Below, piece after piece: positions 1 through 37,497 of a DNA stretch of 37,497 nucleotides. Within the stretch, counting starts at the first letter, position 1; the number at the start of each line of letters is the position of its first letter. The DNA comes from a virus: IMG/VR virus record IMGVR_UViG_2917938226_000001; one strand, given 5' to 3'. A model generated the notes under the pieces. That model did not search any database. It worked only from the letters and a program-made list of their open reading frames with translations, and was not told where the DNA came from. The position numbers and the translations under genes are program-made.

Positions 1-95
1 GCCTTACCATGCCGGGCCTCGCCGCGATCCCCTCACCCTCACGGGATCATCGGGGGAAAGCCGTCATGGAGGTCTGACCCTCCACGGCGGTAAAC
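1..95. repeat. Terminal direct repeat, left copy (circularity overlap)
   Basis: 1-95 is identical to 37403-37497, including 25 bp unique to pentamer tract 1; indicates a circular contig of about 37,402 bp. Confidence 0.92.
26..95 (-). ncRNA. 70-nt double-hairpin constant unit of the pentamer array, copy A (also 37428-37497)
   Basis: Minus strand GTTTACC GCCGT GGAGG gtcaga CCTCC atg ACGGC TTTCCCCCGAT GATCCC gtgagggtgag GGGATC; 69/70 identical to 169-238. Confidence 0.75.
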
Positions 96-166
96 CCTGC
101 CATACCTTGCCTTGCCTTGCCTGGCCAAGCCAAACCTCACCGTACCTTACCTCAGCCTGCCGTGCC
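92..166 (-). ncRNA. GGY-NN pentamer tract 2 (15 units), putative guide RNA
   Basis: Plus strand NN-RCC in exact 5-nt register, 14/15 perfect; minus-strand NN series AC AG GA AA AC GA TT TT CA AA AA AA AT AG TT. Confidence 0.85.
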
Positions 167-168
167 TT

Positions 169-238
169 GATCCCCTCACCCTCGCGGGATCATCGGGGGA
201 AAGCCGTCATGGAGGTCTGACCCTCCACGGCGGTAAAC
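169..238 (-). ncRNA. 70-nt double-hairpin constant unit, copy B
   Basis: One mismatch to 26-95, located in the loop of the GATCCC/GGGATC hairpin. Confidence 0.75.
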
Positions 239-294
239 TCTGCCATACCTCGCCTAGCGCTGCCATGCCCGGCCTCGCCACACCTTGCCATACC
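235..294 (-). ncRNA. GGY-NN pentamer tract 3 (12 units), putative guide RNA
   Basis: 10/12 units perfect and register kept; minus-strand NN series AT AA GT GA CG AT AG TA GA AT AG TT. Confidence 0.82.
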
Positions 295-328: not shown

Positions 329-340
329 GTATAATATCTT
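329..340 (-). promoter_or_regulatory. Putative archaeal BRE/TATA promoter of the pentamer array
   Basis: Minus strand AAGA-TATTATAC; predicted start near 303-308, just upstream of tract 3. Confidence 0.55.
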
Positions 341-405
341 GTCCTCCTCTGTTATCATCTTAGCCTAAGATGTTTACATAGGGGATGTGAGGGATTTCTC
401 ACATC

Positions 406-5065: not shown

Positions 5066-5239
5066 TCACCTCTCCAACTCCTCCTGCCACACCTGCTCTA
5101 CCTCCTCGATGGCGGCTCTCGCCCCATGGGGAGGATGGATGATCGTGCATTTCCCGGAGGGGACGACGATCTCCGGGCCGTCAGGAGTCTCGTGGCGGCA
5201 GACCTTGCCGGAGCACACCCGGCATATGAAGAGAGCCAT
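5066..5239 (-). CDS. Small Cys-containing hypothetical protein
   Basis: MALFICRVCSGKVC; TGATG coupling with the radical SAM gene. Confidence 0.55.
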   Translation of the reverse strand: MALFICRVCSGKVCRHETPDGPEIVVPSGKCTIIHPPHGARAAIEEVEQVWQEELER

Positions 5240-5988
5240 CAGCAAACCCCCTCGCAATAGGGCCGAAGATCCTCCTTGATGTAGTAATCGGCACCAAGGC
5301 TCTCTAAGAGGCTCACAACCCCGTTCCCGAAGGCGTGCCAATCGGTCTCCTTCGCTCTCTGGTCGTAGTTCCACTTCCCGACCTTGAACAGGTCGGTATA
5401 GGGCGCCGCCTTCCTGATCAGGCTCATCGTCTGGTCGGGGTCGATCACAGGTTCGCACGACACCCACGTCCTGAACCCACACGCCTTCGCCTTCGCCAGG
5501 GCGTCAAGCCGCTCCTGCGTCGGAGCGGCGCCGGGCTCGTAGAGTTGCCGCTGCGCCTCGTCCTCGAAGGTGAGGGTCGTGGCGCAGGTGACAAGTTCGG
5601 CGTGCCTTTCGAGGATGTCGAAGTCTCGCAGGCTCCTGTTTCCTCCTTTGGTGAGGATCGTGACGGGTTGGTCGAAGGTGAGGAGCATCTTGAGGGCTTC
5701 GCGGGTGATCTTGTGCTCCTCGTCGGCCCGGCAGTAGGGGTCGCAGGTGAAGCAGAGGAGGATGGTTTTGTCGTTGTCTGCTTTGTTGAGCGTGTCGCAG
5801 TCGAGGAGGAGTTTATCCAGAATGTCTTTGCGGGGCTCTGCCGCCGCGAATGCCGGGCGCTTCATGTGGAGGACGCGAGGGCCGTAGCAGTAGGTGCAGC
5901 CGTGGTCGCATCCGCGATACAGGTTCAGGGCGAGGGGGGCGTATTCCCCTGCACGCCCTTTGGGTTCATATATGACTTTCAACTTCAT
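5239..5988 (-). CDS. Radical SAM protein, spore-photoproduct-lyase-like family
   Basis: NLYRGCDHGCTYCY (CxxxCxxC), TCDPY, ILTKG, VSCEPVI motifs. Confidence 0.88.
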   Translation of the reverse strand: MKLKVIYEPKGRAGEYAPLALNLYRGCDHGCTYCYGPRVLHMKRPAFAAAEPRKDILDKLLLDCDTLNKADNDKTILLCFTCDPYCRADEEHKITREALKMLLTFDQPVTILTKGGNRSLRDFDILERHAELVTCATTLTFEDEAQRQLYEPGAAPTQERLDALAKAKACGFRTWVSCEPVIDPDQTMSLIRKAAPYTDLFKVGKWNYDQRAKETDWHAFGNGVVSLLESLGADYYIKEDLRPYCEGVC

Positions 5989-6005: not shown

Positions 6006-6935
6006 TTACGCATGTGACGTATAGCCCAATTCGATCATGGCGATTCCTCGCAGGATAGGGTAGACCTGTTGCGGCACGACGGCGTTTCCGAGGGCTCGCA
6101 GTCGCTCCACCCGTCCGGAAACCCCATCAACCACTCGACCCACCGAGGGCTCAACTGCCCACTGGCCCCCTCGTGGATCAGAGCACCAGGTATCGAATCC
6201 CGATCCTTCTGTGACTGTGGGAGAGTCGAGTTCTTGGCGTCCTGGGCGCACGGCGTCGGGAACATCGCCGCCGCCTGAATCAATTTCATGGCGTGCCGGG
6301 TTTTCCCGGTATACTCCTTCCCCTTCAGATCTCCGCAGGTCGCATCGAAACGGGTTGGTGTCGGGAACATCGCCACGGCCGTCTGGAGGCCTGGTCCGCC
6401 CTCCCCGTGCACACATTTCCCCGTCGAGGAGTTCGCCCGCGGCGTGGGCCACAACGAACACTCTCTCTCTCTGGTGCGGGGCACCGACGCCCGCAGCCGG
6501 AATATGGAACGGCCGGCAGGTGTAGCCGATACGCTCCAGGTCAGCAATGCAATCGTCGAGTGCCAAGCTGATGATTCCAACAACATTCTCTCCAAACACC
6601 CAAGCGGGCCGGAGCTCCTGCACAATGCGGAGCATTTCCGGCCAGAGGAAACGGTCATCCTCTGTGCCTCGTCGCTGCCCGGCGAGGGAGAACGGCTGGC
6701 ACGGGAACCCGCCGGAGAGGAGGGTCGGGCGTTCGATGCCGGCGTCCCGGAGAGCGTCATTTGTAACGGTTCGCACATCGTCGAATCGTGGGACGTCTGG
6801 CCAGTGTTTCGCGAGGTCTTGCTGGCAGTACGGGTCTTGCTCGACCTGGGCGACGGTGCGGAATCCGGCCCACTCTGCGGCAAGGTCGATCCCGCCAATG
6901 CCAGTGAAGAGGCTGAGGTGTGTGAGGTCATTCAT
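6006..6935 (-). CDS. DNA (cytosine-5)-methyltransferase, alpha-type polypeptide
   Basis: Motif I LFTGIGG, IV GGFPCQPFS, VI ENV, VIII RER, X LGNAVVP; no motif IX. Confidence 0.93.
   Translation of the reverse strand: MNDLTHLSLFTGIGGIDLAAEWAGFRTVAQVEQDPYCQQDLAKHWPDVPRFDDVRTVTNDALRDAGIERPTLLSGGFPCQPFSLAGQRRGTEDDRFLWPEMLRIVQELRPAWVFGENVVGIISLALDDCIADLERIGYTCRPFHIPAAGVGAPHQRERVFVVAHAAGELLDGEMCARGGRTRPPDGRGDVPDTNPFRCDLRRSEGEGVYRENPARHEIDSGGGDVPDAVRPGRQELDSPTVTEGSGFDTWCSDPRGGQWAVEPSVGRVVDGVSGRVERLRALGNAVVPQQVYPILRGIAMIELGYTSHA
6035..6931 (-). CDS. Nested alternative-frame beta-type polypeptide of the C5 methyltransferase
   Basis: 298-aa stop-free frame with three (W/F)PTP repeats and motif IX-like QLSPRWVEWLMGFPDGW; real start may be internal. 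Confidence 0.7.
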   Translation of the reverse strand: MTSHTSASSLALAGSTLPQSGPDSAPSPRSSKTRTASKTSRNTGQTSHDSTMCEPLQMTLSGTPASNARPSSPAGSRASRSPSPGSDEAQRMTVSSGRKCSALCRSSGPLGCLERMLLESSAWHSTIALLTWSVSATPAGRSIFRLRASVPRTRERECSLWPTPRANSSTGKCVHGEGGPGLQTAVAMFPTPTRFDATCGDLKGKEYTGKTRHAMKLIQAAAMFPTPCAQDAKNSTLPQSQKDRDSIPGALIHEGASGQLSPRWVEWLMGFPDGWSDCEPSETPSCRNRSTLSCEESP

Positions 6936-10577: not shown

Positions 10578-10696
10578 TAGTAGTGCCGTTCCGTTCGCTG
10601 TCCCCAAGCTACACGCCTGGAGGGATAGCTGATGATATGTTGCCCCCCCCTGGTTGATATTGTTTTGGGTCATTGCGCTCTATGCGGGGTGAGTTT

Positions 10697-12988
10697 ATGA
10701 CCGAGGTTGGGGATCACGGCCACGGCGCAAAGATCACGGCATCTCGGGAGAAATACCTATACAGAATTGCCAGAGATCTGCATTCGCAGAACCCTGTCGA
10801 GAACTTTCTAGAGGATCTTCAAGACACAAATCGGAAAGTAATTTCGCCGCCCCTCCCTGAAGAGACGGTATCTCAAATCTATAAAGATGTGGCCGGGTGG
10901 AATCTCCAATTCACGCCGCAGATATACCAGATGCACGTGCCGCCAGGTTCAATATCTGCAATCGTAGAGGGCATGCGCCGGGTAGTGTCTGAAAATGATG
11001 GAGATCAGACTAAAAAGGAAAATACCCGGGCTATAGAAATTAGAATGTGCCACCGCCTCGACGATAAAGAGAATGGGGCCGTTGTGCCCATCGAGATCCC
11101 CCTCAGAATGGATCTCAGTACTCTCCAATATATCGAGGGGGCGGGGGCTCGGATTGTAGGCAATCCCTACCATGAAGTTGAACCCTACGAGGCAGTCCGA
11201 TTTACCAACGCGATGGATCTAGATCGGATATTTTACCATGCCCAATCTGTATACCAGGAGCGAAACGCCACAAATGCGCCGAAGATCATCACAGATGAAA
11301 ATCTGATGAAGATGAGAGAGGCGTTCATCGAACGCGCACGCGGGTACCTAGAGCGCGGGGATGATGAGTGCTCGGTCCTGAACGACCTCATCAACGAAGA
11401 CCGTGGGCACTATTTCTGGGAAATTCGGATCTCAGATATTGTTGGGGCTGCGAAGGATGCCGTCCAACGCGCCAATAGTAATGCTCGCCTTCAGAACAAT
11501 CCTCTTCTGAAACTAACTCCTGCAAGTGTTGCGGAGAGGTTTGTAGACCTAAAAGGGAAAGAGATCAGATTTGTCTACGATCTGAAGATCTGGAGAGTCT
11601 GGAACGGCATTCGGTGGGAAGATGACCCCGCCGAGGTGAAAATTCAGAAGAAAATTAAGGAAGTTGTCTCGAACTTGGCAAAAGAGGCCACGCTTACCGT
11701 GGAGGATGAAAAAATCTTGGGGGCGGTTACCAAATTCTTCAAGGGACTGCTCTCCAATGGAGGAATCAAGGGACTAATTGAGATTATATCACGAGATGAA
11801 AAAATTGCCACGAGTTATGGGCACTTCGACGCAGACCCGTACCTCCTGAACTTTGAAAACTGCACATATGACTTGCGAACGTTTACAGGCCGTCCACATT
11901 CCCCCGATGATCTGATCACCAATGTCGCGGGCCAGGGGACGGATCCCGACACTGGAGAAACCATGACAGTCAGGTACGACCCCTCGGCCAAGTGCCCCCT
12001 CTGGAAGAAGAGCCTCGAAGAATGGTTCCCGTTGGATCATGATCATAACCCACATGGGAAAAACGTAGACCGCGATACAATCGAATCCCTCCAGGTTCGA
12101 TTGGGATACAGTATTTCAGGAAATGCCATTGAAGACGACTTCCTGGTGTGGTATGGATTGAAGGGGCGAAATGGAAAGGGGGTATGCAAGGATATTACTA
12201 TGGCAGTTCTTGGAACCTATGCCACGGTATCTGACCGAACCTTAGTCATTGAAACGTATGAAACGGGGAAAGGAGGATCCAGAGGAGACCTCAAAAATCT
12301 CATTGGGAAACGCCTCGTTTTCGTAGATGAACTTAAAAGGAAAGATAGGTTGGACTGCGCGTTTGTGAAGGACTGGTGCGGGCACGGCATCATATCTTTC
12401 CGGCCGCCATACGGATCCAACGAAATCCATATGCGCCCCGCAGGATCCATCATACTCCTCACAAACAATCTGGGATCTATTGAAAGTGCCGACAGTATAT
12501 GGGACAGGTTGAGGATTGTCCCGTGGACCAAGTACTTTGGTGAGAACGAAAGGAAAAAGAATCTCAGATCCGAGTTGTTCAAAGAATTGCCGGGCATTAT
12601 AAACTGGTACCTTGAAGGCTACAAAAAATATACTCAACTAAAAAAATTGCCAGAATCCAACGCAATGCATGCATCACGGGTGAAATACATGGAGGACAAC
12701 AACCCTCTGGCAGACTGGATCGCCGATGAGATGATATTGGCGAATGAGGCCCCAAAATCTCAAAGGCACAAAATAAAAACTCTAAAATCGGAAGTTTACA
12801 CGTATTATAAAAACTGGGCGCTAAATGAAGGATATGATAAAAAAGAGTACCTTGGAAGAACCACATTCTACAAGGAACTTGAGGATAAATACAGAGGAGT
12901 GATCACCCTTAAAACCATACAAGGCAGTAGATTTTATCAAGGAATATGTCTTAGATATCGGTTTGAAAATGATAAACATACGCTCTAA
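10697..12988 (+). CDS. P4/D5-family primase-associated SF3 helicase (PriCT-like N-terminus, D5_N, helicase)
   Basis: PPLPEETV (PriCT-like), WRVWNGIRWEDD, YLLNFENCTYDL, Walker A GRNGKG, Walker B RLVFVDE, IILLTN, WDRLRIVPW; GGTGA RBS. Confidence 0.88.
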   Translation: MTEVGDHGHGAKITASREKYLYRIARDLHSQNPVENFLEDLQDTNRKVISPPLPEETVSQIYKDVAGWNLQFTPQIYQMHVPPGSISAIVEGMRRVVSENDGDQTKKENTRAIEIRMCHRLDDKENGAVVPIEIPLRMDLSTLQYIEGAGARIVGNPYHEVEPYEAVRFTNAMDLDRIFYHAQSVYQERNATNAPKIITDENLMKMREAFIERARGYLERGDDECSVLNDLINEDRGHYFWEIRISDIVGAAKDAVQRANSNARLQNNPLLKLTPASVAERFVDLKGKEIRFVYDLKIWRVWNGIRWEDDPAEVKIQKKIKEVVSNLAKEATLTVEDEKILGAVTKFFKGLLSNGGIKGLIEIISRDEKIATSYGHFDADPYLLNFENCTYDLRTFTGRPHSPDDLITNVAGQGTDPDTGETMTVRYDPSAKCPLWKKSLEEWFPLDHDHNPHGKNVDRDTIESLQVRLGYSISGNAIEDDFLVWYGLKGRNGKGVCKDITMAVLGTYATVSDRTLVIETYETGKGGSRGDLKNLIGKRLVFVDELKRKDRLDCAFVKDWCGHGIISFRPPYGSNEIHMRPAGSIILLTNNLGSIESADSIWDRLRIVPWTKYFGENERKKNLRSELFKELPGIINWYLEGYKKYTQLKKLPESNAMHASRVKYMEDNNPLADWIADEMILANEAPKSQRHKIKTLKSEVYTYYKNWALNEGYDKKEYLGRTTFYKELEDKYRGVITLKTIQGSRFYQGICLRYRFENDKHTL

Positions 12989-13092: not shown

Positions 13093-13190
13093 ACTCTGCA
13101 CCCTGACCCTACAACTCTGCACCCTGACCCTACAACTCTGCACCCTGACCCTACAACTCTGCACCCTGACCCTACAACTCTGCACCCTGA
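13093..13190. repeat. 21-bp iteron array (4.7 copies), putative replication origin
   Basis: ACTCTGCACCCTGACCCTACA x4 plus a 14-bp partial copy, directly downstream of the helicase. Confidence 0.9.
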
Positions 13191-16900: not shown

Positions 16901-19594
16901 TCACCTGTAGAGTTTGTATTCGGATTTCCGCATGTATACGAACACTCCCAGGAACGTCAGTGCCGCGACGATGGGCGCGAGAGCGAGGGGGAGCCACCCG
17001 AGGAAGACCGGGAGCCCGCCGCCGAAGAGCGGGACGATGATCGCACCCTGTCGGACGCGAGGCCCTGAGAAGAGGCTACCGAGACCGATAATCCAGCAGA
17101 CCGAGATGAGCTGATACCAGAACTCATCTTCGAACCCGAGATCCACCAACCGTCCGGTGCCGTGAAGCGTAATCTCCCGGTAGTTGGAGATGGTGCCATA
17201 CTGCGTGTGCGTCGCGTTGAACCCGTAGGACGCGGTGGTCGGATGCGTGTTGTCGATGGCGTACGAGGAGTTGATCCATCCGGCGGCGTTTGGTGCAGAA
17301 GATTCAGTGTAGAGCACTGTGCCGGCCGCGTCCTTCACCCAGAAGTTGAGTGTTGTGGTGCCGTTGACGCCCTGTGGATCATGGTAGGAGAGGGCGAGCG
17401 AGATGGATTCGGGGGAGACTTCTGTTGCGGTGAGGTCGTAGGAGGGGTACTGTGCGCCGGCCGGAGCGTCACGAAGCCTGAACTGGATGGTGTACTCCGC
17501 CTCTTTCGGGAAGATAGAGAAGGTGGTGGACGTGTTCGAGACCGGATCGAAGGCGTCGATCTGGTAGCGGATGCACTCGATCATCAGGAAGTTGATCGAC
17601 CCGTCGAGGCCGGTGGTGCCGGAGAGCGTCGCGGTGGTGATGTTTGCGCAGTCACCGACCGGGACACCGATGAGGTTGCTGAGCCAGTCGTCAGGGTTGG
17701 ATATCTCGATGTAGGCCGCGGAGAGTTGGACGCCGGGCATCGGGGCGCCGTAGTCGTCGATGCAGTGGAACCGGACGGTCCGCGGGACGTAGTTCCCGGT
17801 AGACGGCGGCGCTGCGGCGGCCTGTTTGGTGAGTAGCAGCGTCACTTTCGTGTCCCGGTCAACGAAGGCGTAGGTGGATGTCGGGTAATATCCCTGCGCC
17901 GCGGCAGAGACCGTGTACGACCCGTAGCCGACGGTGAAGCGGGCGGTGCCGGAGGAGGTGACGGTTTCCTGCCCGTCGGTGAGTGAGACCGTGGTGGAGT
18001 TGGTGAGGATGGTGCCGGCCTCTGCGTCTTTGACGGTGACGTTGAGGGTGAACGACGAGGCGAGGGCGACGTTGCGCTGTGTGACTCCATCGACGACGAC
18101 CGTCTCGGTTATGCCGGTGTGCCCCGGTGCAGAGGCAGAGAGGGTGTACTGCCCGTTGGCGACGTCGGCGAACTCGTAGAACCCCGTGGAGGTGGTGACG
18201 GTGCTGTCGGACCATGAGGCGTTGTTGACCGCGACGGTGGCGCCGGAGATGCCCTGCGCTGAACCCTGAGCGTAGACCTGGCCGTAGAGGGATGTGGTGT
18301 TTGCCGGCGGCGGGGTGTCGGGGTAGAGGTAGAGGTTGATTGCCCAGGTGGAGAGGCGCGGGACGCTGGTATATTCAGTGGTTTGTGAGGTGTAACCGGA
18401 TTTGCTGACGGTGAACGAGACGGGGAAGTCGGGGTTGAGCGGTGTGATGCTGAAGTATCCGGCGCTGTCGGTGGTATCGCTGTCGCTGGTGCCTGCGGCG
18501 GGTTGTGCGGCGGAGACGGTGGCGCCCTCGATGACGGTGCCGGTGGTTACGTCGTAGACGAAGCCGGTGGCGGTGACGTTGGTTTTCGGGTCGATGTACA
18601 TGCCGCTGATCGTTGCGGTGGCAGAGGGAGAGGCGAGTTCTTTGAGCGAGGAGTCGTAGACGCGGCAGGTGATGGTGTGGCGCCCTTCGGAGGGGAAGGA
18701 GAGAGATTGTGTTTTTGCGGCGGCGGCTGTAGTGGCGTGGGAGTAGGTGCCGGTGAATTGGTCGTATTCGTACCATGTGGAGCCGTTGAGATGGTAGGTG
18801 TTGTAGAGGGCGCCGTCGGTGAACCACGAGATGTACGCGTATTCGGGGGCGTCGGCGGCGGCGGATAGGGTGGCCTGGATGGGTTCGTAGACGGCGGCGG
18901 TGGTGGGGGAGAGGGAGAGAATGAAATATGTGGTGTCGGGGTCGTTGGGGAGGTCGGGGGCAGGATCTACATAGACATAATCATAATCTCCCTGAGATAT
19001 AACATAAGCCCACGCCGCAGTACCAAACGTCGGATACATAGCAGACGGCGCAGACGTGGTTAAAACCCGCCAGTCAGCATCATCGATGGCAAATTTCAGA
19101 GTAGTACCTTCAACACGAAACTTATACACATGATAAGAAGAACCCGTTATACGCTCCTCATTAACTAACTTAGACGAACTAGACCCACTACAACGATAAA
19201 CATTGAACCCCGTAGACCATAAACCAACGTGAATCCCATTTCTCGTACTCACATCATACGCAGGAGAAGTACCCGTGAAAAGACCAAAAATGATCTGGTT
19301 CCCCCCAGCATGACGTACCCGAAAATGACATTCATAGGTCCCGCTCATCGAATTAGGATACTGATACCAGTTCCACCGCTTCGCAAGGGAACCCGAATTG
19401 GTCCAGATAGACGCAACACCGACATCCACCGACGACGATCCCCCCGAGACTCGATGATTCCAGACAGACGAGATGGATCCACCGAAGTCGTCCCTAAAAT
19501 CTTCGTAGGCGCTGACGGGGGCGACGGCACCGATCATCATCAATGCGAGGGCGGCGAGGATCACCAACCGTGGCGTGCCTCCTCCCGGCGTCAA
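16901..19594 (-). CDS. Large spike/adsorption-like protein (about 890-900 aa): signal peptide, lectin-like beta-sandwich, carboxypeptidase-regulatory-like repeats, C-terminal TMs
   Basis: LVILAALALMMIGAVAPVSA; GFVYDVTTGTVIEGATVS...TDSAGYFSI and GISGATV...TTSTGFYEF repeats; many N-x-S/T sequons; TTG start inferred. Confidence 0.8.
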   Translation of the reverse strand: MTPGGGTPRLVILAALALMMIGAVAPVSAYEDFRDDFGGSISSVWNHRVSGGSSSVDVGVASIWTNSGSLAKRWNWYQYPNSMSGTYECHFRVRHAGGNQIIFGLFTGTSPAYDVSTRNGIHVGLWSTGFNVYRCSGSSSSKLVNEERITGSSYHVYKFRVEGTTLKFAIDDADWRVLTTSAPSAMYPTFGTAAWAYVISQGDYDYVYVDPAPDLPNDPDTTYFILSLSPTTAAVYEPIQATLSAAADAPEYAYISWFTDGALYNTYHLNGSTWYEYDQFTGTYSHATTAAAAKTQSLSFPSEGRHTITCRVYDSSLKELASPSATATISGMYIDPKTNVTATGFVYDVTTGTVIEGATVSAAQPAAGTSDSDTTDSAGYFSITPLNPDFPVSFTVSKSGYTSQTTEYTSVPRLSTWAINLYLYPDTPPPANTTSLYGQVYAQGSAQGISGATVAVNNASWSDSTVTTSTGFYEFADVANGQYTLSASAPGHTGITETVVVDGVTQRNVALASSFTLNVTVKDAEAGTILTNSTTVSLTDGQETVTSSGTARFTVGYGSYTVSAAAQGYYPTSTYAFVDRDTKVTLLLTKQAAAAPPSTGNYVPRTVRFHCIDDYGAPMPGVQLSAAYIEISNPDDWLSNLIGVPVGDCANITTATLSGTTGLDGSINFLMIECIRYQIDAFDPVSNTSTTFSIFPKEAEYTIQFRLRDAPAGAQYPSYDLTATEVSPESISLALSYHDPQGVNGTTTLNFWVKDAAGTVLYTESSAPNAAGWINSSYAIDNTHPTTASYGFNATHTQYGTISNYREITLHGTGRLVDLGFEDEFWYQLISVCWIIGLGSLFSGPRVRQGAIIVPLFGGGLPVFLGWLPLALAPIVAALTFLGVFVYMRKSEYKLYR

Positions 19595-23626: not shown

Positions 23627-23992
23627 TTACTTCTGGCGCGGCATCAGGACGTAGAGCGCACCAAGGATACCGACAGCCGCCATGATGATCAGCGTGATCG
23701 CCAGGAGACCGTACCCGCTCTGGGTCGTGGTGGCCAGACTGGTCTGGATTCCGTGCCAGGACGAGTTGTCGGGGATGGCGGGGGTCCCTGCCTCGATGTT
23801 GTAGAGGATCACAACGCCGATAGCCATCACGACTGCCGCGACGATGAACCCGAGGACAACATTGACGTTGCCATCCTCCACGTCCATCTTGTACCGGTCC
23901 CTGACGGCGCTAGCGCCGCCGGTTGCGTATACGGCGAGGAGTTCCTTGCCGTACTTGGTGTACTTTTCAATCAGAGTCATCTTTCCTTTCAC
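23627..23992 (-). CDS. Candidate major capsid protein of spindle-shaped-virus type (propeptide plus hydrophobic helical hairpin)
   Basis: Charged 40-aa leader ending DVEDG, helix 1 VVLGFIVAAVVMAIGVVILY, linker with NSS sequon, helix 2 LLAITLIIMAAVGILGALY, basic end; own AT-rich promoter; next to the ATPase. Confidence 0.7.
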   Translation of the reverse strand: MKGKMTLIEKYTKYGKELLAVYATGGASAVRDRYKMDVEDGNVNVVLGFIVAAVVMAIGVVILYNIEAGTPAIPDNSSWHGIQTSLATTTQSGYGLLAITLIIMAAVGILGALYVLMPRQK

Positions 23993-25124: not shown

Positions 25125-25522
25125 TATTCGCCACTTCCGCGCCTATCCTCTGCGGGGGAAGGTCTCTTGTTCAGGAGCATGTCGGAGAAGTACATGTCTT
25201 GCGATGCGATGGAGATCAAGTCTTCATTCAGGCATACAGTGACGAAATAGTCCATGATGTCTGAGGTTTTTGAGAGTGTTTCAGCCCAGAGGCTGCTATC
25301 GTTGGCAAAGGACGTTGCAACCTTATCCCACGTCTTCTTCCACTCAACCCAGTCTGAGAGGAATTGGGCGGGGGGCTTCCCTTTCTTTTTTTGAATAGCC
25401 GCCCATGTGAGGGACATGACGGAGCGGGACAACCGAAGCGCCTGGGCGGGATCCGTGGAGCATGACGCCACCACAATCAGGCGACCAAGAGCCTCTTTAT
25501 AATCATTGGGTATAATGCCCAT
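25124..25522 (-). CDS. Hypothetical protein
   Basis: 132 aa, TAATG coupling to the ATPase. Confidence 0.7.
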   Translation of the reverse strand: MGIIPNDYKEALGRLIVVASCSTDPAQALRLSRSVMSLTWAAIQKKKGKPPAQFLSDWVEWKKTWDKVATSFANDSSLWAETLSKTSDIMDYFVTVCLNEDLISIASQDMYFSDMLLNKRPSPAEDRRGSGE

Positions 25523-26993: not shown

Positions 26994-27656
26994 TCAGAGG
27001 ACCATCGGGAGGGCGGCGACGGCGAAGTACGCGAGGACGAGCGCCCCGATCCAGGGGTGCCGCGCCTCCTCCATGGGGACGATGGCGCCCGCCCCCAGGC
27101 CGGCCAGCCACCCGCACCAGTGCCCCACCACATCGGTGTAGAAGGTTCTGCCGTCCCCGAGCACTGTCACCGGAGGGACGAGGAGCGGGACCACGACGAG
27201 GAGGGCGATGCCCGCGAGGATCCCCCGGGTCTTCCGGGAGGGGTGCCGGGCGACTTCGCCGACGAAGTACACTGTGATGATGCCGAGGAGGGCGAACACC
27301 ACGCCAGAGAGCCCCAGGCCGGTGCTCTGCATCCCGAGGCCGGTTTTGAGTAGGGCGGTCAGGAGCGGGACGAGGGCGAGGGCCAGAAGGAACTGTTTCG
27401 ATACGGTGGAGATGCCATCTTTCCCGGCCATGAGGAGGAGAGCGGGAGCGAGGATGGCGTACGCTTTGAGGTTCGACGCGAAGAAGGGCCATCCGTACGA
27501 TACGAAGGGAGCAATGAGGCATTTGGCGAACTGCGGGAGGCCCTGCACCCATGGGTAGAAGGTCGGCGGGAGCTGCGACTGGATGATGCCGAGGAGGAGG
27601 GGAACGGCGAGGAAGAGTCCTATCGGGGCGAAATCATGTAGAGGATGCCTTTCCAT
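26994..27656 (-). CDS. Rhomboid-family intramembrane serine protease
   Basis: GLSGVVFALLG (GxSG) and VVGHWCGWLAG (HxxGxxxG); about six TMs. Confidence 0.75.
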   Translation of the reverse strand: MERHPLHDFAPIGLFLAVPLLLGIIQSQLPPTFYPWVQGLPQFAKCLIAPFVSYGWPFFASNLKAYAILAPALLLMAGKDGISTVSKQFLLALALVPLLTALLKTGLGMQSTGLGLSGVVFALLGIITVYFVGEVARHPSRKTRGILAGIALLVVVPLLVPPVTVLGDGRTFYTDVVGHWCGWLAGLGAGAIVPMEEARHPWIGALVLAYFAVAALPMVL

Positions 27657-27871
27657 AGAAACCACGTCACGATTATGCCAAGGACGGCAAATGCTGCTCC
27701 CATTCCGATCTGCTCCCACGAGATCAAGGCGTATGGGCTACAGCCATAGTACCCATATGGTCCTGCAATTGCCGATATCATCTCTCGCATCAGAAAAACG
27801 GCGATCACACTGGCGATAAGGGCGGCAAAAAACCAACGTGCTGAGAGGTCCGACTTAGAACTCATCCCCAA
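27620..27871 (-). CDS. Small two-TM membrane protein
   Basis: Hydrophobic segments. Confidence 0.55.
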   Translation of the reverse strand: MGMSSKSDLSARWFFAALIASVIAVFLMREMISAIAGPYGYYGCSPYALISWEQIGMGAAFAVLGIIVTWFLWKGILYMISPR

Positions 27872-29680: not shown

Positions 29681-30275
29681 CCTCCTTCAGTCTCTTATAC
29701 AGGGTCGTCCTCCCGATGCCGAACTTCTTGCAGATCGTTGTCTTCGGGACTCCCTCGGCAATCATCCGCTGTGCCTCCTTGATGTTCACCGTCTTGCGCC
29801 GCCGGCCGAACTTTACCCCTTTCTCCCTCGCGGCATCAAGGCCCAACTTGGTCCTCTCCATGATGAGTTCCCGTTCATATTCCGCGAGGGCGCCCATGAT
29901 GTAGAAGAAGAGCCGCCCCTCCTTCGTCGTGGTGTCGATGTTGTTGGTGATACTGATGAGGCCGACGCCGTGGTCTTCGAGGTATTTCGAGATGTTCATG
30001 AGGTCCTGGAGGGAGCGGCCCACCCGGTCCAACTTGTAGATCACGAGGGCTTCGGCACTGAGGGGGTTGTGTTCGAGATCCCGGATCATCTGCTGGAACC
30101 CGGGGCGGTCGATGTTCTTGCCGCTGGCCTTGTCGGTGTAGACCTTGACCAGTTCATAGCCTCTGAACTGACAGAACTTCGTGATCTGTTCTTGCTGTAT
30201 GTCGAGGTTTTGGTGATTTGTGCTTACTCTGGCGTATGCTATGACTCTCATGTATCTGTCCCCGGGGTTTATCAT
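29661..30275 (-). CDS. Small serine recombinase (resolvase/invertase) with C-terminal HTH
   Basis: AYARVST (catalytic Ser), DRPG, KLDRVGRS, ERTKLGL, GRRRK, ICKKFGIGRTTLYK. Confidence 0.93.
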   Translation of the reverse strand: MINPGDRYMRVIAYARVSTNHQNLDIQQEQITKFCQFRGYELVKVYTDKASGKNIDRPGFQQMIRDLEHNPLSAEALVIYKLDRVGRSLQDLMNISKYLEDHGVGLISITNNIDTTTKEGRLFFYIMGALAEYERELIMERTKLGLDAAREKGVKFGRRRKTVNIKEAQRMIAEGVPKTTICKKFGIGRTTLYKRLKEVEENES

Positions 30276-31870
30276 GTAGATTCCGTTATAGCTGGATAGA
30301 CGTTGTTGCAGGCCCCAAGATAGTACGGGGCATTGTGCAGCGTTTCGTTGTAGGCTGTTTCACCCTCGTAGTCGTCGATAACGGCCTTTTCTTCAACATC
30401 CAGATCCTCGTATGCCTTCCGTCCGTAGGTGGGCGGCAACCAATTCTTGTGCTGGCACCCATAGATGTTGAACCTCTTGAGCAGATCCTCGTCGGTGAAG
30501 GTGATGTGCGTCGTCCCCTTCTTGTAACAGGTTATCGTGAAGAACTCGAACGGGATGTTCTTGGTTGTTCTTTCCTCTTTTGCCTGCCTCAGAATTTCGG
30601 TCACGTCTGACGCGCCGTTCTGGTTTCCCGAGAGGTAATGCAGGGTCTTGTCGATGTCGATGAGTTCTTCCACCTCCCGGTAGGAATAGGGTGAATAATC
30701 CTGTGTCAGGTACTGGTAGAGGCGTATAGGGAGGATCACCTTCTTGTTGATCTTCCATGCCTTGTTCGTGGCCCATCCATTGAAGTAGTGCCGGTTCTTC
30801 TTGGTTTCCGGCGTCCAGTGATATTCGTGAGTTAGGGTGTCGAACAGTTTGATGATCGTCTCGTCCGTAGCCTTGATCATCTTCTGCGTCAGTTCCAGGC
30901 GAATGGCGTTGATGTTGTACTCGTTGAAGTCATAGTCCTGGAGGCGCTGCACATCCCCCCGGCACTGCTCCAGGAGATTCGAGGTGAACTTTGCGGTGAA
31001 CCTCGGGTTCATGAAGAGGTTTTCCCAGTACTTCTTCCGGGTCTGCTGGAGAAACTGGTTCTCATACAGATCGCTGCTGTCTTTGATCTTGAGTTCGAGG
31101 ATGGGCGAGGGGTACTCCCGGCACATCGAGTCGAGAATCAGCGGCTTGATGGTCTTGTAGTCCCGGATCAGTTGCAGACCGGCGCGAGTCTCCTCTCTGA
31201 ACGTCCGCACAACGGCCGTGATGTAGTCGTTGACATTCAGCGCGTTGCACTCTGCATCCAGTTCGTGGAGGGTAGGGCCGCGTTCGAGCGAGTCAAGGAT
31301 CACGCTGTCATGTTTCACCGGCGGGATCCACACCTTGATCAGCGCCACCTCAACGTCTGAGGTGCGTTCGGCTTGCCTGAACTCCCCGTCCAGATAGGCG
31401 ATGGAGGCACCGTAGTGGTTCAAGGTCTTGACGAGTTCTTGCCGGGCGTAGGTGCGAGGATTCCGAACCGTTTCGGCGTTCAGGAGACATACGATCCCGC
31501 CGCCGCGAGCCTGGAGTTCAAGTGCCTTCAGGAGATGCTTCTCACCGTCCGCGAAGGGCGGGTTCATGACGATCAGGTCGTAGTGCTTGAACGTCGAAAA
31601 GGCCAGGAAATTGTCGAACACCACGCGGTGTCCTTTCCCCTTCAGGACGTGCTGGAGGTCCGGGTTGATCTCGATGGTGTCGATGTCAGGGGTGACATCC
31701 CTCTGGCCCCACCGCTGCCTGCTGACGATCTTCTGTTTCACCGCGTCGGCGAGGTCGCCTTTGCCCGCCGACGGTTCGAGGACCGTGGCCACGATGCTGA
31801 AGTCTATCCCGTCCAGCATCTTCCTGATCATAGATGGGGGCGTCGGGTAGAAGGCGTCCAGGAGGGTCAT
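30272..31870 (-). CDS. N6-adenine DNA methyltransferase with DUF4942-like C-terminal domain
   Basis: FYPTP, VLEPSAGKG, DLIVMNPPF; C-terminal CYKKGTTHITF. Confidence 0.88.
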   Translation of the reverse strand: MTLLDAFYPTPPSMIRKMLDGIDFSIVATVLEPSAGKGDLADAVKQKIVSRQRWGQRDVTPDIDTIEINPDLQHVLKGKGHRVVFDNFLAFSTFKHYDLIVMNPPFADGEKHLLKALELQARGGGIVCLLNAETVRNPRTYARQELVKTLNHYGASIAYLDGEFRQAERTSDVEVALIKVWIPPVKHDSVILDSLERGPTLHELDAECNALNVNDYITAVVRTFREETRAGLQLIRDYKTIKPLILDSMCREYPSPILELKIKDSSDLYENQFLQQTRKKYWENLFMNPRFTAKFTSNLLEQCRGDVQRLQDYDFNEYNINAIRLELTQKMIKATDETIIKLFDTLTHEYHWTPETKKNRHYFNGWATNKAWKINKKVILPIRLYQYLTQDYSPYSYREVEELIDIDKTLHYLSGNQNGASDVTEILRQAKEERTTKNIPFEFFTITCYKKGTTHITFTDEDLLKRFNIYGCQHKNWLPPTYGRKAYEDLDVEEKAVIDDYEGETAYNETLHNAPYYLGACNNVYPAITEST

Positions 31871-32142
31871 GGGTTCGGACCCCCCGTCTCCCCGGGGGTC
31901 TGCCACACCTGCCCGGTCCCGTCGCAGTGAGGGCACGAGATCAGGCGCCCCTCTCCTTTCGGCCGCCGCCACAGCCTCCAGTGTGGCTCCCCATTACTCG
32001 CCCGAGGGTACTCCTCTAAGACAGCCTCCTGGCCGATACTCTCCAGCCACTCGGCCTCTTCGCGGGCCCGATCTTTGTAGGGGCCATAGGCTCCGGCAAA
32101 CTCGTACGTCTTCCCCTCAAAGATTTTTGTGAATCGGCTCAT
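31867..32142 (-). CDS. Hypothetical protein with CxxCxGxG motif
   Basis: CPHCDGTG. Confidence 0.6.
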   Translation of the reverse strand: MSRFTKIFEGKTYEFAGAYGPYKDRAREEAEWLESIGQEAVLEEYPRASNGEPHWRLWRRPKGEGRLISCPHCDGTGQVWQTPGETGGPNP

Positions 32143-36138: not shown

Positions 36139-36564
36139 ATGGAGCATATGGAGCAGAAACAGGTACCTCTCTTCACGGAGGTGGATCTGATTTCGATCTA
36201 CACCAGGGAGGACGCAATTAGAGATGGCCTCCTGGTGGACGTATCAGAGATGGGCCGCGAGGCTGGGTTTAGGATCCCGGTCGCGGTCACGCGAAAGTTG
36301 TGGGACGAGTATATAGTACCTGACCCGCGCTCTGTCCCCTACGGCCAGAGTGTGGACGGTCGCCTCTGGGATACCCTGTGGATGAGCCACCTCGCGGCCC
36401 GCTGCAGGCCGGACACGGACCGCGTGCAGTACAGCGTGCAGTACAAGGTCATCTACATCATGAAAACCGCACAGCGGAGGGGGATCACTCTGGAGATGCG
36501 GGTCGGGGCCGCAGACCCACAGGGTCGCCCCTGCATCACGATCATGCTCCCGGGGGAGGACTGA
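36139..36564 (+). CDS. DUF6573-like protein
   Basis: IYTREDAIRDGLLVDVS...PVAVTRKLW...GRLWDTLWM...ITIMLPGED. Confidence 0.78.
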   Translation: MEHMEQKQVPLFTEVDLISIYTREDAIRDGLLVDVSEMGREAGFRIPVAVTRKLWDEYIVPDPRSVPYGQSVDGRLWDTLWMSHLAARCRPDTDRVQYSVQYKVIYIMKTAQRRGITLEMRVGAADPQGRPCITIMLPGED

Positions 36565-36797: not shown

Positions 36798-37337
36798 CTA
36801 TTTTTCCCACTTCGTAACCATAAAGCGGCCAAACGGCCCCTTCCGTTCTGGCCGGAAGTCCAGAAGGCCGACCTTCGCCCCTGCATCATCCACGACCGTC
36901 CTGAGTTGCGCCTCCGTCAGCATTTCAGGATCGTAATCGAGGGTGAACCGAACTTCCCACTGGTCCAGACGCGGACGGTACCGAACTATCCGGCCCTTTG
37001 TCGCAGAGATCACGACGGGGCGCGCGTCGATCTTGTAGTCGGTCGTCCCCAGGCCGCACTGGTCCGGGGAAACGAACACGCAGGCCGCCACGGGTTTTTG
37101 CAGGCTGGCCCTGCCTTTCCCCTTCGAGTAGACCGCTGCGGCGATCAATGCCCTCTGGATCGCAACGCCAGGAATGTACAGTTCCTTCGTCTCTTCGTCG
37201 CGGTATGCGGCTATCTCTGCCTGTTCCTCTTTCGACTTCTTTTCAATCGCATGCACGGGTTCCATGGGGAATCGGTGCATAAGGAGAGCAGATCCCTCAA
37301 CGCCCTCAATTGTTACTTTAACTTTTTTTACAGCCAT
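36798..37337 (-). CDS. Stand-alone Cas7/RAMP-like protein, putative Vipr-type effector of the GGY-NN array
   Basis: N-terminal beta strand VKVTIEG..LLMH, LYIPGVAIQRALIAAA (RAMP YIPGSSxKG-like), W-V-F-L strand, C-terminal Gly-rich loop GAKVGLLDFRPERKGPFGRF; immediately downstream of the pentamer array. Confidence 0.8.
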   Translation of the reverse strand: MAVKKVKVTIEGVEGSALLMHRFPMEPVHAIEKKSKEEQAEIAAYRDEETKELYIPGVAIQRALIAAAVYSKGKGRASLQKPVAACVFVSPDQCGLGTTDYKIDARPVVISATKGRIVRYRPRLDQWEVRFTLDYDPEMLTEAQLRTVVDDAGAKVGLLDFRPERKGPFGRFMVTKWEK

Positions 37338-37340
37338 AAT

Positions 37341-37425
37341 TTACCTCGCCTCGCCGTGCCGTGCCTCGCCGTGCCGTGCCTCGCCATGCCAAACCTCACC
37401 TGGCCTTACCATGCCGGGCCTCGCC
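37341..37425 (-). ncRNA. GGY-NN pentamer tract 1 (17 perfect units), putative guide RNA or leader
   Basis: Minus-strand NN series GA CC AT AA CA GA TT AT GA AC AC GA AC AC GA GA AA; ends 3 nt before the ATG. Confidence 0.88.
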
Positions 37426-37497
37426 GCGATCCCCTCACCCTCACGGGATCATCGGGGGAAAGCCGTCATGGAGGTCTGACCCTCCACGGCGGTAAAC
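37403..37497. repeat. Terminal direct repeat, right copy
   Basis: Identical to 1-95. Confidence 0.92.

What the first reader, a model, noticed from the sequence alone, without database searches (positions are those of the whole stretch)
36798..37497. Stand-alone Cas7/RAMP-like gene directly after a perfect GGY-NN pentamer tract: candidate programmable RNA-guided viral system (VIPR-like)
Seen: 17 consecutive minus-strand pentamers (37425 to 37341) are all GGC or GGT followed by a freely varying dinucleotide, and end 3 nt before the ATG of a 179-aa protein. Knowledge: the protein has RAMP/Cas7 hallmarks (LYIPGxxIxxAL, a C-terminal Gly-rich loop), and Cas7 proteins polymerise on RNA with a fixed nucleotide periodicity. 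No cas1, cas3, cas5, cas6, cas8, cas10 or CRISPR array was recognised. Inference: each subunit clamps one GGY and presents the NN, so the NN series is a gapped guide. This matches my recollection of recently reported VIPR (Viral Interference Programmable Repeat) systems, which I cannot verify here. An instance in an archaeal, probably spindle-shaped virus would be notable either way.
Basis: partly seen in the sequence, partly recalled or inferred. Interest (0 to 1): 0.97.

Follow-up and report, generated by a model that had tools for sequence, protein, structure and literature searches.

The report
Archaeal VIPR system aimed at CRISPR genes
The lone Cas7-like gene and its five-base repeat tract are a VIPR system (a CRISPR-like RNA-guided DNA silencer described in 2026) on a 37-kb circular element of a methanogen, and its guides appear to be aimed at the host's own CRISPR genes, so it probably works as an RNA-guided anti-CRISPR.

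Summary
There are 17 perfect GGY-NN pentamers (37425-37341, minus strand) ending 3 nt before the ATG of a 179-aa ORF; simulated sequence gave runs of 5 at most.

The VIPR reading is supported. A profile of the protein family matches the solved SUSP1 Vipr (E 2e-22), the fold is Csm3/Cas7-like, and the GGY-reading residues are conserved. 17 of 18 homologous loci carry GGY-NN tracts. VIPR was published in 2026, and this scan has noted it in at least 195 genomes, so the instance itself is a new member of a known kind.

Several things go beyond that:
- The window is a circular 37.4-kb episome of a methanogen. Two more guide tracts lie upstream across the junction.
- Hairpin plus kink-turn modules separate the tracts.
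- No vap gene was found.
- Guide A best matches host cas5d (type I-C; 17/18 over its variable units). Guide B best matches host cse1 (type I-E; 8 perfect units).
- A relative's guide matches cse1 22/22.
- The host carries 7 perfect spacers against this episome, 6 of them with a usable PAM.

The likely function is RNA-guided silencing of the host Cascade genes. The flagged tract C has no identified target. Another agent working on this window reached the same anti-CRISPR reading.

The parts
36798..37337 (-). vipr gene: 179-aa Vipr (minimal RAMP/Cas7-like) protein
   Evidence: ORF. The family profile hits PDB 36pp SUSP1 Vipr at E 2.1e-22. BLASTP against SUSP2 Vipr gives E 1e-12. AF2 pLDDT is 97.2. 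Foldseek top hits are Csm3/Cas7 at E 2e-7. H21, R121, D160, F161 and R162 align with SUSP1 H17, R138, D177, W178 and R179.
37341..37425 (-). Guide tract C: 17 perfect GGY-NN units with no 3' hairpin. Its last units supply a GAGGT Shine-Dalgarno-like motif for vipr.
   Evidence: It contains an internal 15-nt duplication. No target stood above the null in the host genome, in 301 Methanomicrobiales genomes, in IMG/VR or in the metagenome collection.
26..91 (-). Inter-tract module 2 (also present as 37428-37497 because of the terminal overlap): a 12-layer hairpin with loop GUCAGA, followed by a kink-turn hairpin at 54..30
92..166 (-). Guide tract B: 15 units, one of them deviant (GCTGA). Units 3-10 match host cse1 (type I-E).
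169..234 (-). Inter-tract module 1: hairpin followed by a kink-turn hairpin at 197..173. It differs from module 2 at a single base.
235..294 (-). Guide tract A: 12 units, two of them deviant (CGCTA, AGTTT). Units 1-9 match host cas5d (type I-C) 17/18.
329..358 (-). AT-rich promoter-like stretch (TATTAT/TATA-like) about 35 nt upstream of tract A. This is the inferred start of one transcript covering A, B, C and vipr.
   Evidence: consensus match only, inferred
23634..23667 (+). Protospacer: a perfect match to host type I-C spacer 6, with a 5'-TTC PAM
25173..25205 (+). Protospacer: a perfect match to host type I-C spacer 8, with a 5'-TTC PAM
25329..25360 (-). Protospacer: a perfect match to host type I-C spacer 7, with a 5'-TTC PAM
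6457..6488 (+). Protospacer of a host type I-E spacer (perfect match, 5' flank ACG)
10785..10816 (-). Protospacer of a host type I-E spacer (perfect match, 5' flank AAG)
17592..17623 (+). Protospacer of a host type I-E spacer (perfect match, 5' flank AAG)
18295..18326 (+). Protospacer of a host type I-E spacer (perfect match, 5' flank ATG)

Best explanation
The flagged gene is vipr, and the tract is one of three vrRNA guide tracts of a VIPR system carried by a 37.4-kb circular episome (virus or plasmid) of a methanogenic archaeon.

Steps taken from published relatives: Vipr protomers polymerise along the GGY-NN RNA. Each GGY is flipped out and held by the G-loop, thumb and RRM sheet. The NN dinucleotides pair with double-stranded DNA while skipping every third base, and binding blocks transcription.

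Steps inferred here: one promoter upstream of tract A drives A, module, B, module, C and vipr as a single transcript. Each module is a hairpin plus a kink-turn hairpin. The modules punctuate or cap the guides and may recruit host L7Ae.

Guide A reads cas5d of the host type I-C operon, and guide B reads cse1 of the host type I-E operon. Each target is the first Cascade gene downstream of cas3. The host holds seven perfect spacers against this episome, so silencing both Cascade operons would let the episome persist. That makes this an RNA-guided anti-CRISPR.

Tract C, the one flagged, has no known target. It is either a guide against an unsampled rival element or a Vipr-binding leader that throttles vipr translation.

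The confidence given (0.6) is for the whole statement including the anti-CRISPR function. For the VIPR identity alone it is about 0.95.
For: Membership in VIPR:
- PDB SUSP1 Vipr hit at E 2.1e-22; Csm3/Cas7 fold.
- Conserved GGY-contact residues.
- Tracts present beside 17 of 18 homologs.

Targeting (1-nt-skip code, guide sense equals coding strand, in frame, skip on the wobble base):
- A units 1-9 match cas5d 17/18. The genome-wide runner-up scores 15. Shuffled unit order reaches 17 in 1 of 500 trials. All 11 units score 19/22, reached in 8 of 700 shuffles.
- B units 3-10 match cse1 16/16. This is the unique longest perfect run in the genome; the null reaches 8 units in 1 of 100.
- With one uniform local score, the single top hit of A is cas5d and the single top hit of B is cse1. 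The two cas operons make up about 0.5% of the chromosome.
- Skip 0, 2 and 3 controls give nothing comparable.
- Independent relative: the 11 variable units of L016 tract 2 match G000 cse1 codons 4-14 (NLIADPWIPVR) 22/22. Four other genomes have the same motif at 2 mismatches. The reversed-pattern control gave 0 hits in 301 genomes.
- The cas genes were confirmed by Pfam.

Selective pressure on the episome:
- 3 type I-C spacers (leader-proximal, all with TTC PAM) and 4 type I-E spacers (flanks AAG, AAG, ATG, ACG) match the episome perfectly.
- There is no integrated copy in the chromosome.

The mismatches of A and B fall mostly in the 3'-terminal units. Those units are AA/AG-rich across the whole family, so they look like scaffold rather than guide.
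Against: - There is no expression, binding or silencing data for this system or for any archaeal VIPR.
- Guide B matches only 20/30 overall, below the 80% rule used in the papers. Whether 8 matched units are enough for binding is unknown.
- Guide A has an A-versus-G mismatch at unit 6 in all 7 genomes of the genus that carry the site.
- The score-only p-values are modest: 0.05 for A and 0.19 for B with the uniform statistic. The strength of the case comes from where the hits lie and from the relative's 22/22 match.
- Spacers and episome could coexist because the culture is a mixed population, or because of an unrecognised protein anti-CRISPR.
- The only other Vipr-bearing genome among 201 Methanomicrobiales (G104) showed no match to its own genome with 2 guides tested.
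- Tract C has no target.
Confidence: 0.6

Rival explanations
1. This is an ordinary VIPR used only against rival mobile elements, as in the published cases. The matches to cas5d and cse1 are chance, or by-products of guides shaped like codons. The episome survives the seven spacers for some other reason, such as a protein anti-CRISPR, a silent CRISPR locus or a mixed culture.
For: Published natural targets are satellites, prophages and other VIPR systems. The score-only significance of A and B is modest. B falls below the 80% rule. Tract C and most relatives' guides have no cas match.
Against: The unique top hits of two of the three guides fall in about 0.5% of the chromosome, one in each of the two CRISPR systems that hold spacers against this element. 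A relative's guide matches cse1 22/22, with a chance expectation of about 3e-7 per genome. No rival-element target was found in IMG/VR or in metagenome scans.
Confidence: 0.25
2. The flagged tract C is not a DNA guide. It is a cis-regulatory leader: Vipr polymerises on the GGY repeats of its own mRNA, covers the GAGGT ribosome-binding site and limits its own translation. Alternatively, cleavage of the leader leaves a short-leader vipr mRNA.
For: Tract C ends 3 nt before the ATG and lacks the hairpin that follows A and B. The same tail-less last tract abutting the ATG is seen in L021, L025 and L030. Tract C has an internal duplication and no target.
Against: In G104 the last tract does have a hairpin and sits about 45 nt from the ATG. 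In L016 and L033 a module, not a tract, precedes the ATG. 17 perfect units with varied NN look like a maintained guide. No experiment bears on this.
Confidence: 0.3
3. The locus is a decaying or inactive remnant with no present function.
For: Three deviant units occur in tracts A and B. No vap gene was found.
Against: The ORF is intact and 80-87% identical to many relatives, with contact residues conserved. Tract C has 17 perfect units. The two modules differ at one base, while homologous modules in relatives show compensatory changes.
Confidence: 0.04

Closest known systems
VIPR systems (Vipr + vrRNA), with the type II system of Escherichia phage SUSP1 as experimental exemplar (bioRxiv 10.64898/2026.04.26.720920, .720927, 10.64898/2026.10.15.759431)
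   Same: Shared features are a small single-RRM RAMP protein homologous to SUSP1 Vipr with the same GGY-contact residues, GGY-NN tracts of 11-17 units beside the gene, and a conserved structured element after the tracts. The element is carried by a mobile element. The matches found here fit only the published 1-nt-skip code, with the skip on the wobble base.
   Different: - The host is an archaeal methanogen.
- No vap gene was found.
- All tracts lie upstream of vipr, apparently in one transcript.
- Tracts are separated by a hairpin plus kink-turn module instead of a pseudoknot tail or hammerhead. Rfam gave no ribozyme hit, and the core lacks GAAA.
- The last tract has no tail and abuts the ATG.
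- The predicted targets are host Cascade genes, not rival elements.
- The VIPR type (I-VII) could not be assigned because the papers' tables are not held.
Class 1 CRISPR backbone proteins Csm3/Cas7
   Same: RRM core, thumb and glycine-rich loop. Foldseek E 2e-7 and TM 0.52-0.62 to Csm3 chains. There is also a weak profile hit to Csm5.
   Different: The protein has 179 aa and no extra domains. The element has no CRISPR array and no cas1, cas2, cas3, cas5, cas6, cas8 or cas10. The RNA periodicity is 5 nt with three bases flipped out, rather than 6 nt with one.
Mobile-element-borne nucleic-acid-guided counter-defence: RNA anti-CRISPRs (Racrs, solitary repeat units) and the phage ICP1 CRISPR-Cas that targets the Vibrio PLE island (from my own knowledge; Racr is also cited in scan note e1-3271626)
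   Same: A mobile element uses RNA, or an RNA-guided machine, against a host defence system. The presence of self-matching spacers points to an inhibitor.
   Different: Racrs act as decoys that trap Cas proteins, and ICP1 cuts DNA. The proposed action here is transcriptional silencing of the cas genes themselves by a gapped-code guide.
Archaeal kink-turn RNAs bound by L7Ae (box C/D and H/ACA sRNAs, RNase P RNA; established knowledge)
   Same: The consensus is C-stem, 3-nt bulge (RAU), tandem G.A/A.G pairs, non-canonical stem that often starts with U.U or U.G, then a GNRA loop. It covaries across about 12 distinct copies. The host encodes L7Ae-family proteins.
   Different: There are no box D or guide elements. 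The location is between VIPR guide tracts. L7Ae binding has not been tested.

Membership tests
VIPR system | Protein homologous to an experimentally characterised Vipr | tested here: met
   The profile of 75 family members hits PDB 36pp_D 'SUSP1 Vipr protein' at E 2.1e-22, positions 1-175 against 1-189. BLASTP against SUSP2 Vipr gives E 1e-12 over the thumb and G-loop region. tblastn hits Felixounavirus/Suspvirus phages.
VIPR system | Minimal RAMP fold: single RRM core, thumb, glycine-rich loop | tested here: met
   AF2 model with pLDDT 97.2 and pTM 0.91. The top Foldseek hits are all Csm3/Cas7 chains at probability 1.00.
VIPR system | Residues that read G1, G2 and Y3 (SUSP1 H17, R138, D177, W178, R179) | tested here: met
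   H21, R121, D160, F161 (aromatic in place of W) and R162 align with them. R121 is invariant and R162 nearly invariant in the family alignment.
VIPR system | Adjacent tandem GGY/NN (YNNGG) repeat tracts of about 9-16 units on the gene strand | tested here: met
   Tracts of 12, 15 and 17 units directly upstream. The simulated maximum run is 5. 17 of 18 homologous loci have such tracts.
VIPR system | Invariable structured 3' tail after each tract | tested here: inconclusive
   Tracts A and B are followed by a conserved hairpin plus kink-turn module. The flagged tract C has none. Whether the module acts as a 3' tail, a 5' handle or a processing site cannot be settled without RNA ends.
VIPR system | vipr-accessory (vap) gene next to vipr | tested here: not met
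   There is no co-directional gene after vipr. The downstream ORFs are convergent (DUF6573 at 36139-36564). Relatives L025-L029 and L033 do have an overlapping downstream gene. The paper says loci 'typically' have vap and names six vap families for seven types, so vap does not appear to be obligatory.
VIPR system | Non-contiguous DNA recognition with one skipped base per unit | tested here: met
   This was tested by computation only. The cas5d (17/18), cse1 (16/16) and L016-to-cse1 (22/22) matches appear only under skip 1; skip 0, 2 and 3 stay at background. Binding itself cannot be tested with these tools.
VIPR system | vrRNA expression and Vipr-vrRNA ribonucleoprotein formation | not testable with these tools
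   This needs small-RNA sequencing and a pull-down.
CRISPR-Cas (class 1) | CRISPR repeat-spacer array and other cas genes in the locus | tested here: not met
   There are none on the 37.4-kb element. The only CRISPR-Cas loci are on the host chromosome.
Hammerhead-interspersed VIPR arrays (types I and V in the paper) | Hammerhead core (CUGANGA ... GAAA ... UH) between tracts | tested here: not met
   There is no Rfam hit at E up to 10. The position equivalent to G5 varies between G and A, and GAGG follows the stem where GAAA would be.
Kink-turn RNA motif | C-stem, 3-nt bulge, tandem sheared G.A pairs and NC-stem, kept by covariation | tested here: met
   The pattern is present in every full inter-tract module of the window, L016, L021, L025, L026, L030, L033 and G104. 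Stems vary (CCC/GGG, GCC/GGC, GCU/GGC; UCCC/GGGU, CCCGG/CCGGG, UCUC/GAGA). The background rate in the host chromosome is 126 hits in 5.74 Mb. The match is to the sequence and structure consensus only; the 3D fold and L7Ae binding are untested.

The most novel reading that the evidence does not exclude
A mobile element of a methanogen uses VIPR, the proposed evolutionary forerunner of CRISPR effectors, against CRISPR itself. Its gapped-code guides bind conserved codons of the first Cascade gene of both host systems (cas5d of type I-C, cse1 of type I-E) and shut the operons down. This lets the element live in a cell that holds seven perfect spacers against it. The guides are delivered from a polycistronic array punctuated by kink-turn modules that may borrow the host protein L7Ae.
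Probability: 0.6. Interest if true: 0.85.

Novelty: new variant of a known kind. Interest (0 to 1): 0.72.

Why it matters
VIPR itself has been in print since April 2026, so a further instance is ordinary. The predicted target class is what matters here. None of the four VIPR papers held in the library mentions guides aimed at cas genes or any archaeal experiment.

If the reading holds, VIPR is also a programmable anti-defence weapon. Its wobble-skipping code is then suited to hitting conserved protein motifs of immune genes across host species.

The strain offers a clean natural test bed: a complete genome, an episome, two CRISPR systems with seven matching spacers, and two matching guides. 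The kink-turn modules would be the first link between VIPR RNA and a host RNA-binding protein, and they bear on how guide arrays are processed without Cas6.

Tried and rejected
- Pfam gave no family for the protein. PHROGs gave only phrog_4652, of unknown function.
- Rfam gave no ribozyme or other family for the modules. The weak Antizyme_FSE and sR24 hits are noise.
- ARAGORN found no tRNA-like gene in the window or in six relatives.
- megablast of 24 kb of the element against the phage and plasmid collections found nothing.
- Target searches that found nothing:
  - all three guides against the episome itself;
  - 47 relatives' guides against the episome;
  - guide B against 12 genomes of the genus at up to 3 mismatches;
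  - guide C against 301 genomes of the order;
  - 10-11-unit exact patterns of A, B and C in IMG/VR, and of B and C in the metagenome collection.
- The 11-mer CCGATGATCCC occurs 15 times in the chromosome. All copies are coding (GIIG-type codons), so they are irrelevant.
- Guide C's best host hit (25/34, inside an MCR-alpha gene) is within the null, with p about 0.08-0.10.
- The L016 tract 1 hit in cas4 and the L021 tract 3 hit at the cas3 end are tied, scattered matches and were treated as chance.
- Two G104 guides gave no hit in the G104 genome.
- No complex prediction was run.

Full report
**Observation.** On the minus strand, 37425..37341 is 17 consecutive GGC/GGT-NN pentamers. Three bases later comes the ATG of a 179-aa ORF at 36798..37337. 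In 200 Markov simulations of the window the longest such run was 5. Window bases 1-95 equal 37403-37497. The window is therefore a complete 37,402-bp circle, and it is contig C2 of a two-contig genome whose other contig is a 2.87-Mb chromosome.

Reading the minus strand across the junction gives this order:
- an AT-rich TATA-like stretch (about 358-329);
- tract A (294..235, 12 units);
- a 66-nt module;
- tract B (166..92, 15 units);
- a second module that differs at one base;
- tract C (the flagged 17 units);
- vipr.

**What it is.** VIPR (Viral Interference Programmable Repeat) is real and was published in 2026. It consists of a minimal RAMP protein, Vipr, and vrRNAs of alternating GGY/NN. 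The NN read double-stranded DNA while skipping one base per unit, and binding silences transcription.

The 179-aa protein has no Pfam family. It does belong to a very large family, with 1,350 hits in one search and 2,252 cluster representatives in another. Membership rests on the following:
- A profile of 75 members matches the solved SUSP1 Vipr chain (PDB 36pp) end to end at E 2.1e-22.
- The AlphaFold model (pLDDT 97.2) is most similar to Csm3/Cas7 chains.
- The residues that the cryo-EM paper shows reading G1, G2 and Y3 are conserved: H21, R121, D160, F161 and R162 correspond to H17, R138, D177, W178 and R179.
- 17 of 18 homologous loci from viral and genome collections carry GGY-NN tracts on the gene strand next to the gene.

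The scan has already noted VIPR in at least 195 genomes.

**Host and element.** The chromosome encodes two MCR-alpha genes and L7Ae-family proteins, so the host is a methanogen. It belongs to an order whose sampled genomes rarely carry vipr: 2 of 201. The nearest named homolog is from a Methanoregula sp. MAG.

The episome encodes a D5-type primase-helicase, two DNA methyltransferases, a radical-SAM protein, a rhomboid and a 952-aa surface-type protein. No recognisable capsid, portal or terminase came up, so virus versus plasmid is open. It has no vap gene; the ORFs after vipr are convergent.

**Array architecture.** Each module has two parts:
- a 12-layer hairpin with a conserved GUCNNA loop. 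RNAalifold counts 8 of 14 pairs with compensatory changes across ten copies;
- a hairpin that fits the kink-turn consensus: C-stem, RAU bulge, GA, NC-stem, mostly GNRA loop, GA, C-stem.

The kink-turn pattern is found in every full inter-tract module of the window and of the close relatives L016, L021, L025, L026, L030, L033 and G104. The stems covary between copies. The host chromosome shows the pattern only once per about 46 kb of strand. It is not a hammerhead. The VIPR papers do not mention kink-turns or L7Ae.

The last tract before vipr lacks the hairpin in the window, L021, L025 and L030, but not in G104. The three 3'-terminal units of tracts are AA/AG-rich across the family, which suggests a scaffold role.

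**Targets.** I decoded the guides with the published 1-nt-skip rule.
- There is no target on the episome itself.
- In the chromosome, guide A's best site is 342485-342517, in frame in cas5d of a type I-C operon (cas3, cas5d, csd1, cas7, cas4; Pfam). Units 1-9 match 17/18. The runner-up scores 15, and shuffled unit order reaches 17 in 1 of 500. All 11 units score 19/22, reached in 8 of 700 shuffles. The same site, with different wobble bases, is present in 7 of 12 genomes of the genus.
- After reading scan note e1-5828974, I looked for a second match. Guide B units 3-10 match cse1 codons 132-139 of a type I-E operon 16/16 (Pfam). This is the unique longest perfect run in the genome (null 1 of 100), although the whole tract scores only 20/30.
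- With one uniform local score, the single top hit of A is cas5d and the single top hit of B is cse1. The two operons are about 0.5% of the chromosome.
- Both sites lie in the first Cascade gene after cas3.
- Independent support comes from a relative. The 11 variable units of tract 2 of L016 (Vipr 81% identical) match G000 cse1 codons 4-14 (NLIADPWIPVR) 22/22. The remaining units are the block shared with L016 tract 1. In 301 genomes of the order this pattern hit only cse1-type N-L-I-x-D-x-W-I-P-V sites, and the reversed control hit nothing.
- Guide C has no match above the null anywhere I could search.

**Why an anti-CRISPR is expected.** The type I-C array (70 repeats) has three consecutive leader-proximal spacers that match the episome perfectly, each next to a 5'-TTC PAM. 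The five type I-E arrays (116 spacers) have four perfect matches, with flanks AAG, AAG, ATG and ACG. The chromosome holds no integrated copy of the element. An element that persists beside seven perfect spacers in two intact interference systems needs a way to disable both. Its two tailed guides point at exactly those two systems.

**Limits.**
- Nothing here shows expression, binding or repression.
- B is a partial match.
- A has one internal mismatch.
- A mixed culture or a protein anti-CRISPR could explain the coexistence.
- The one other Vipr-bearing genome of the order gave no self-match.
- The VIPR type could not be assigned because the supplementary tables are not held.

**Verdict.** This is a bona fide VIPR system (confidence about 0.95). 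It is a new variant in its architecture and its likely target class. The anti-CRISPR reading stands at about 0.6.

Noticed in passing
window 13093-13190: A perfect 21-nt tandem repeat (4.7 copies) lies just downstream of the D5 primase-helicase gene (10673-12988). It may be replication-origin iterons.
   Followed up: no
window 26-96 and 169-239 (minus); L025:2713-2760, L026:2700-2790, L033:2311-2350: The first hairpin of each module is a 12-layer stem with a T-loop-like loop (GUCNNA, or UUCGAG in some relatives). This resembles a tRNA acceptor/T-arm minihelix, which is a possible RNase P/Z-type processing signal. ARAGORN calls no tRNA. A scan note on an actinophage VIPR also reports tRNA-like tails (e1-5360981).
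   Followed up: partly
G000:C1:1400431-1400481 (minus): Guide C's best host match (25/34, in frame) lies in the N-terminal part of one of the two MCR-alpha genes. It is within the shuffled-guide null (p about 0.1), so it was treated as chance.
   Followed up: partly
L034:11530-13300 (G000:C1 about 346530-348300): The host type I-C operon ends with cas4, and no cas1 or cas2 ORF follows it. A cas1 sits in the type I-E operon. Yet the I-C array has leader-proximal spacers against the episome.
   Followed up: no
window 36139-36564 (+) and L021-L029: A DUF6573 gene, and in L021-L024 also a DUF3560 gene, recurs next to vipr in the archaeal clade in varying orientation. This is likely synteny of related elements rather than a vap gene.
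   Followed up: partly
L030: 4551-4573 and 5000-5022 (minus): Two identical further kink-turn-pattern hairpins (GCCGATGATCGCCTGCGGGAGGC) lie about 450 nt apart on the opposite strand, away from the VIPR tracts.
   Followed up: no
L032:3040-3364: A relative from a bacterial-type phage context has one uninterrupted tract of 58 good units out of 65, downstream of vipr. It may be the 'staggered array' form named in the paper.
   Followed up: no
L026:2800-2846 (also L027-L029): The 5' half of the kink-turn (CCCCGATGA) is triplicated in tandem before the first tract.
   Followed up: no
window 26994-27719 (minus), 5239-5988 (minus), 6006-6935 (minus), 30272-31972 (minus): The episome encodes a rhomboid-domain protein, a radical-SAM protein, a C5 DNA methyltransferase and a second methyltransferase with DUF4942.
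   Followed up: no
G000:C1:335369-339985, spacer 44: A further type I-C spacer matches the episome imperfectly (22/24 at 31735-31758). This suggests older contact with a related element.
   Followed up: no
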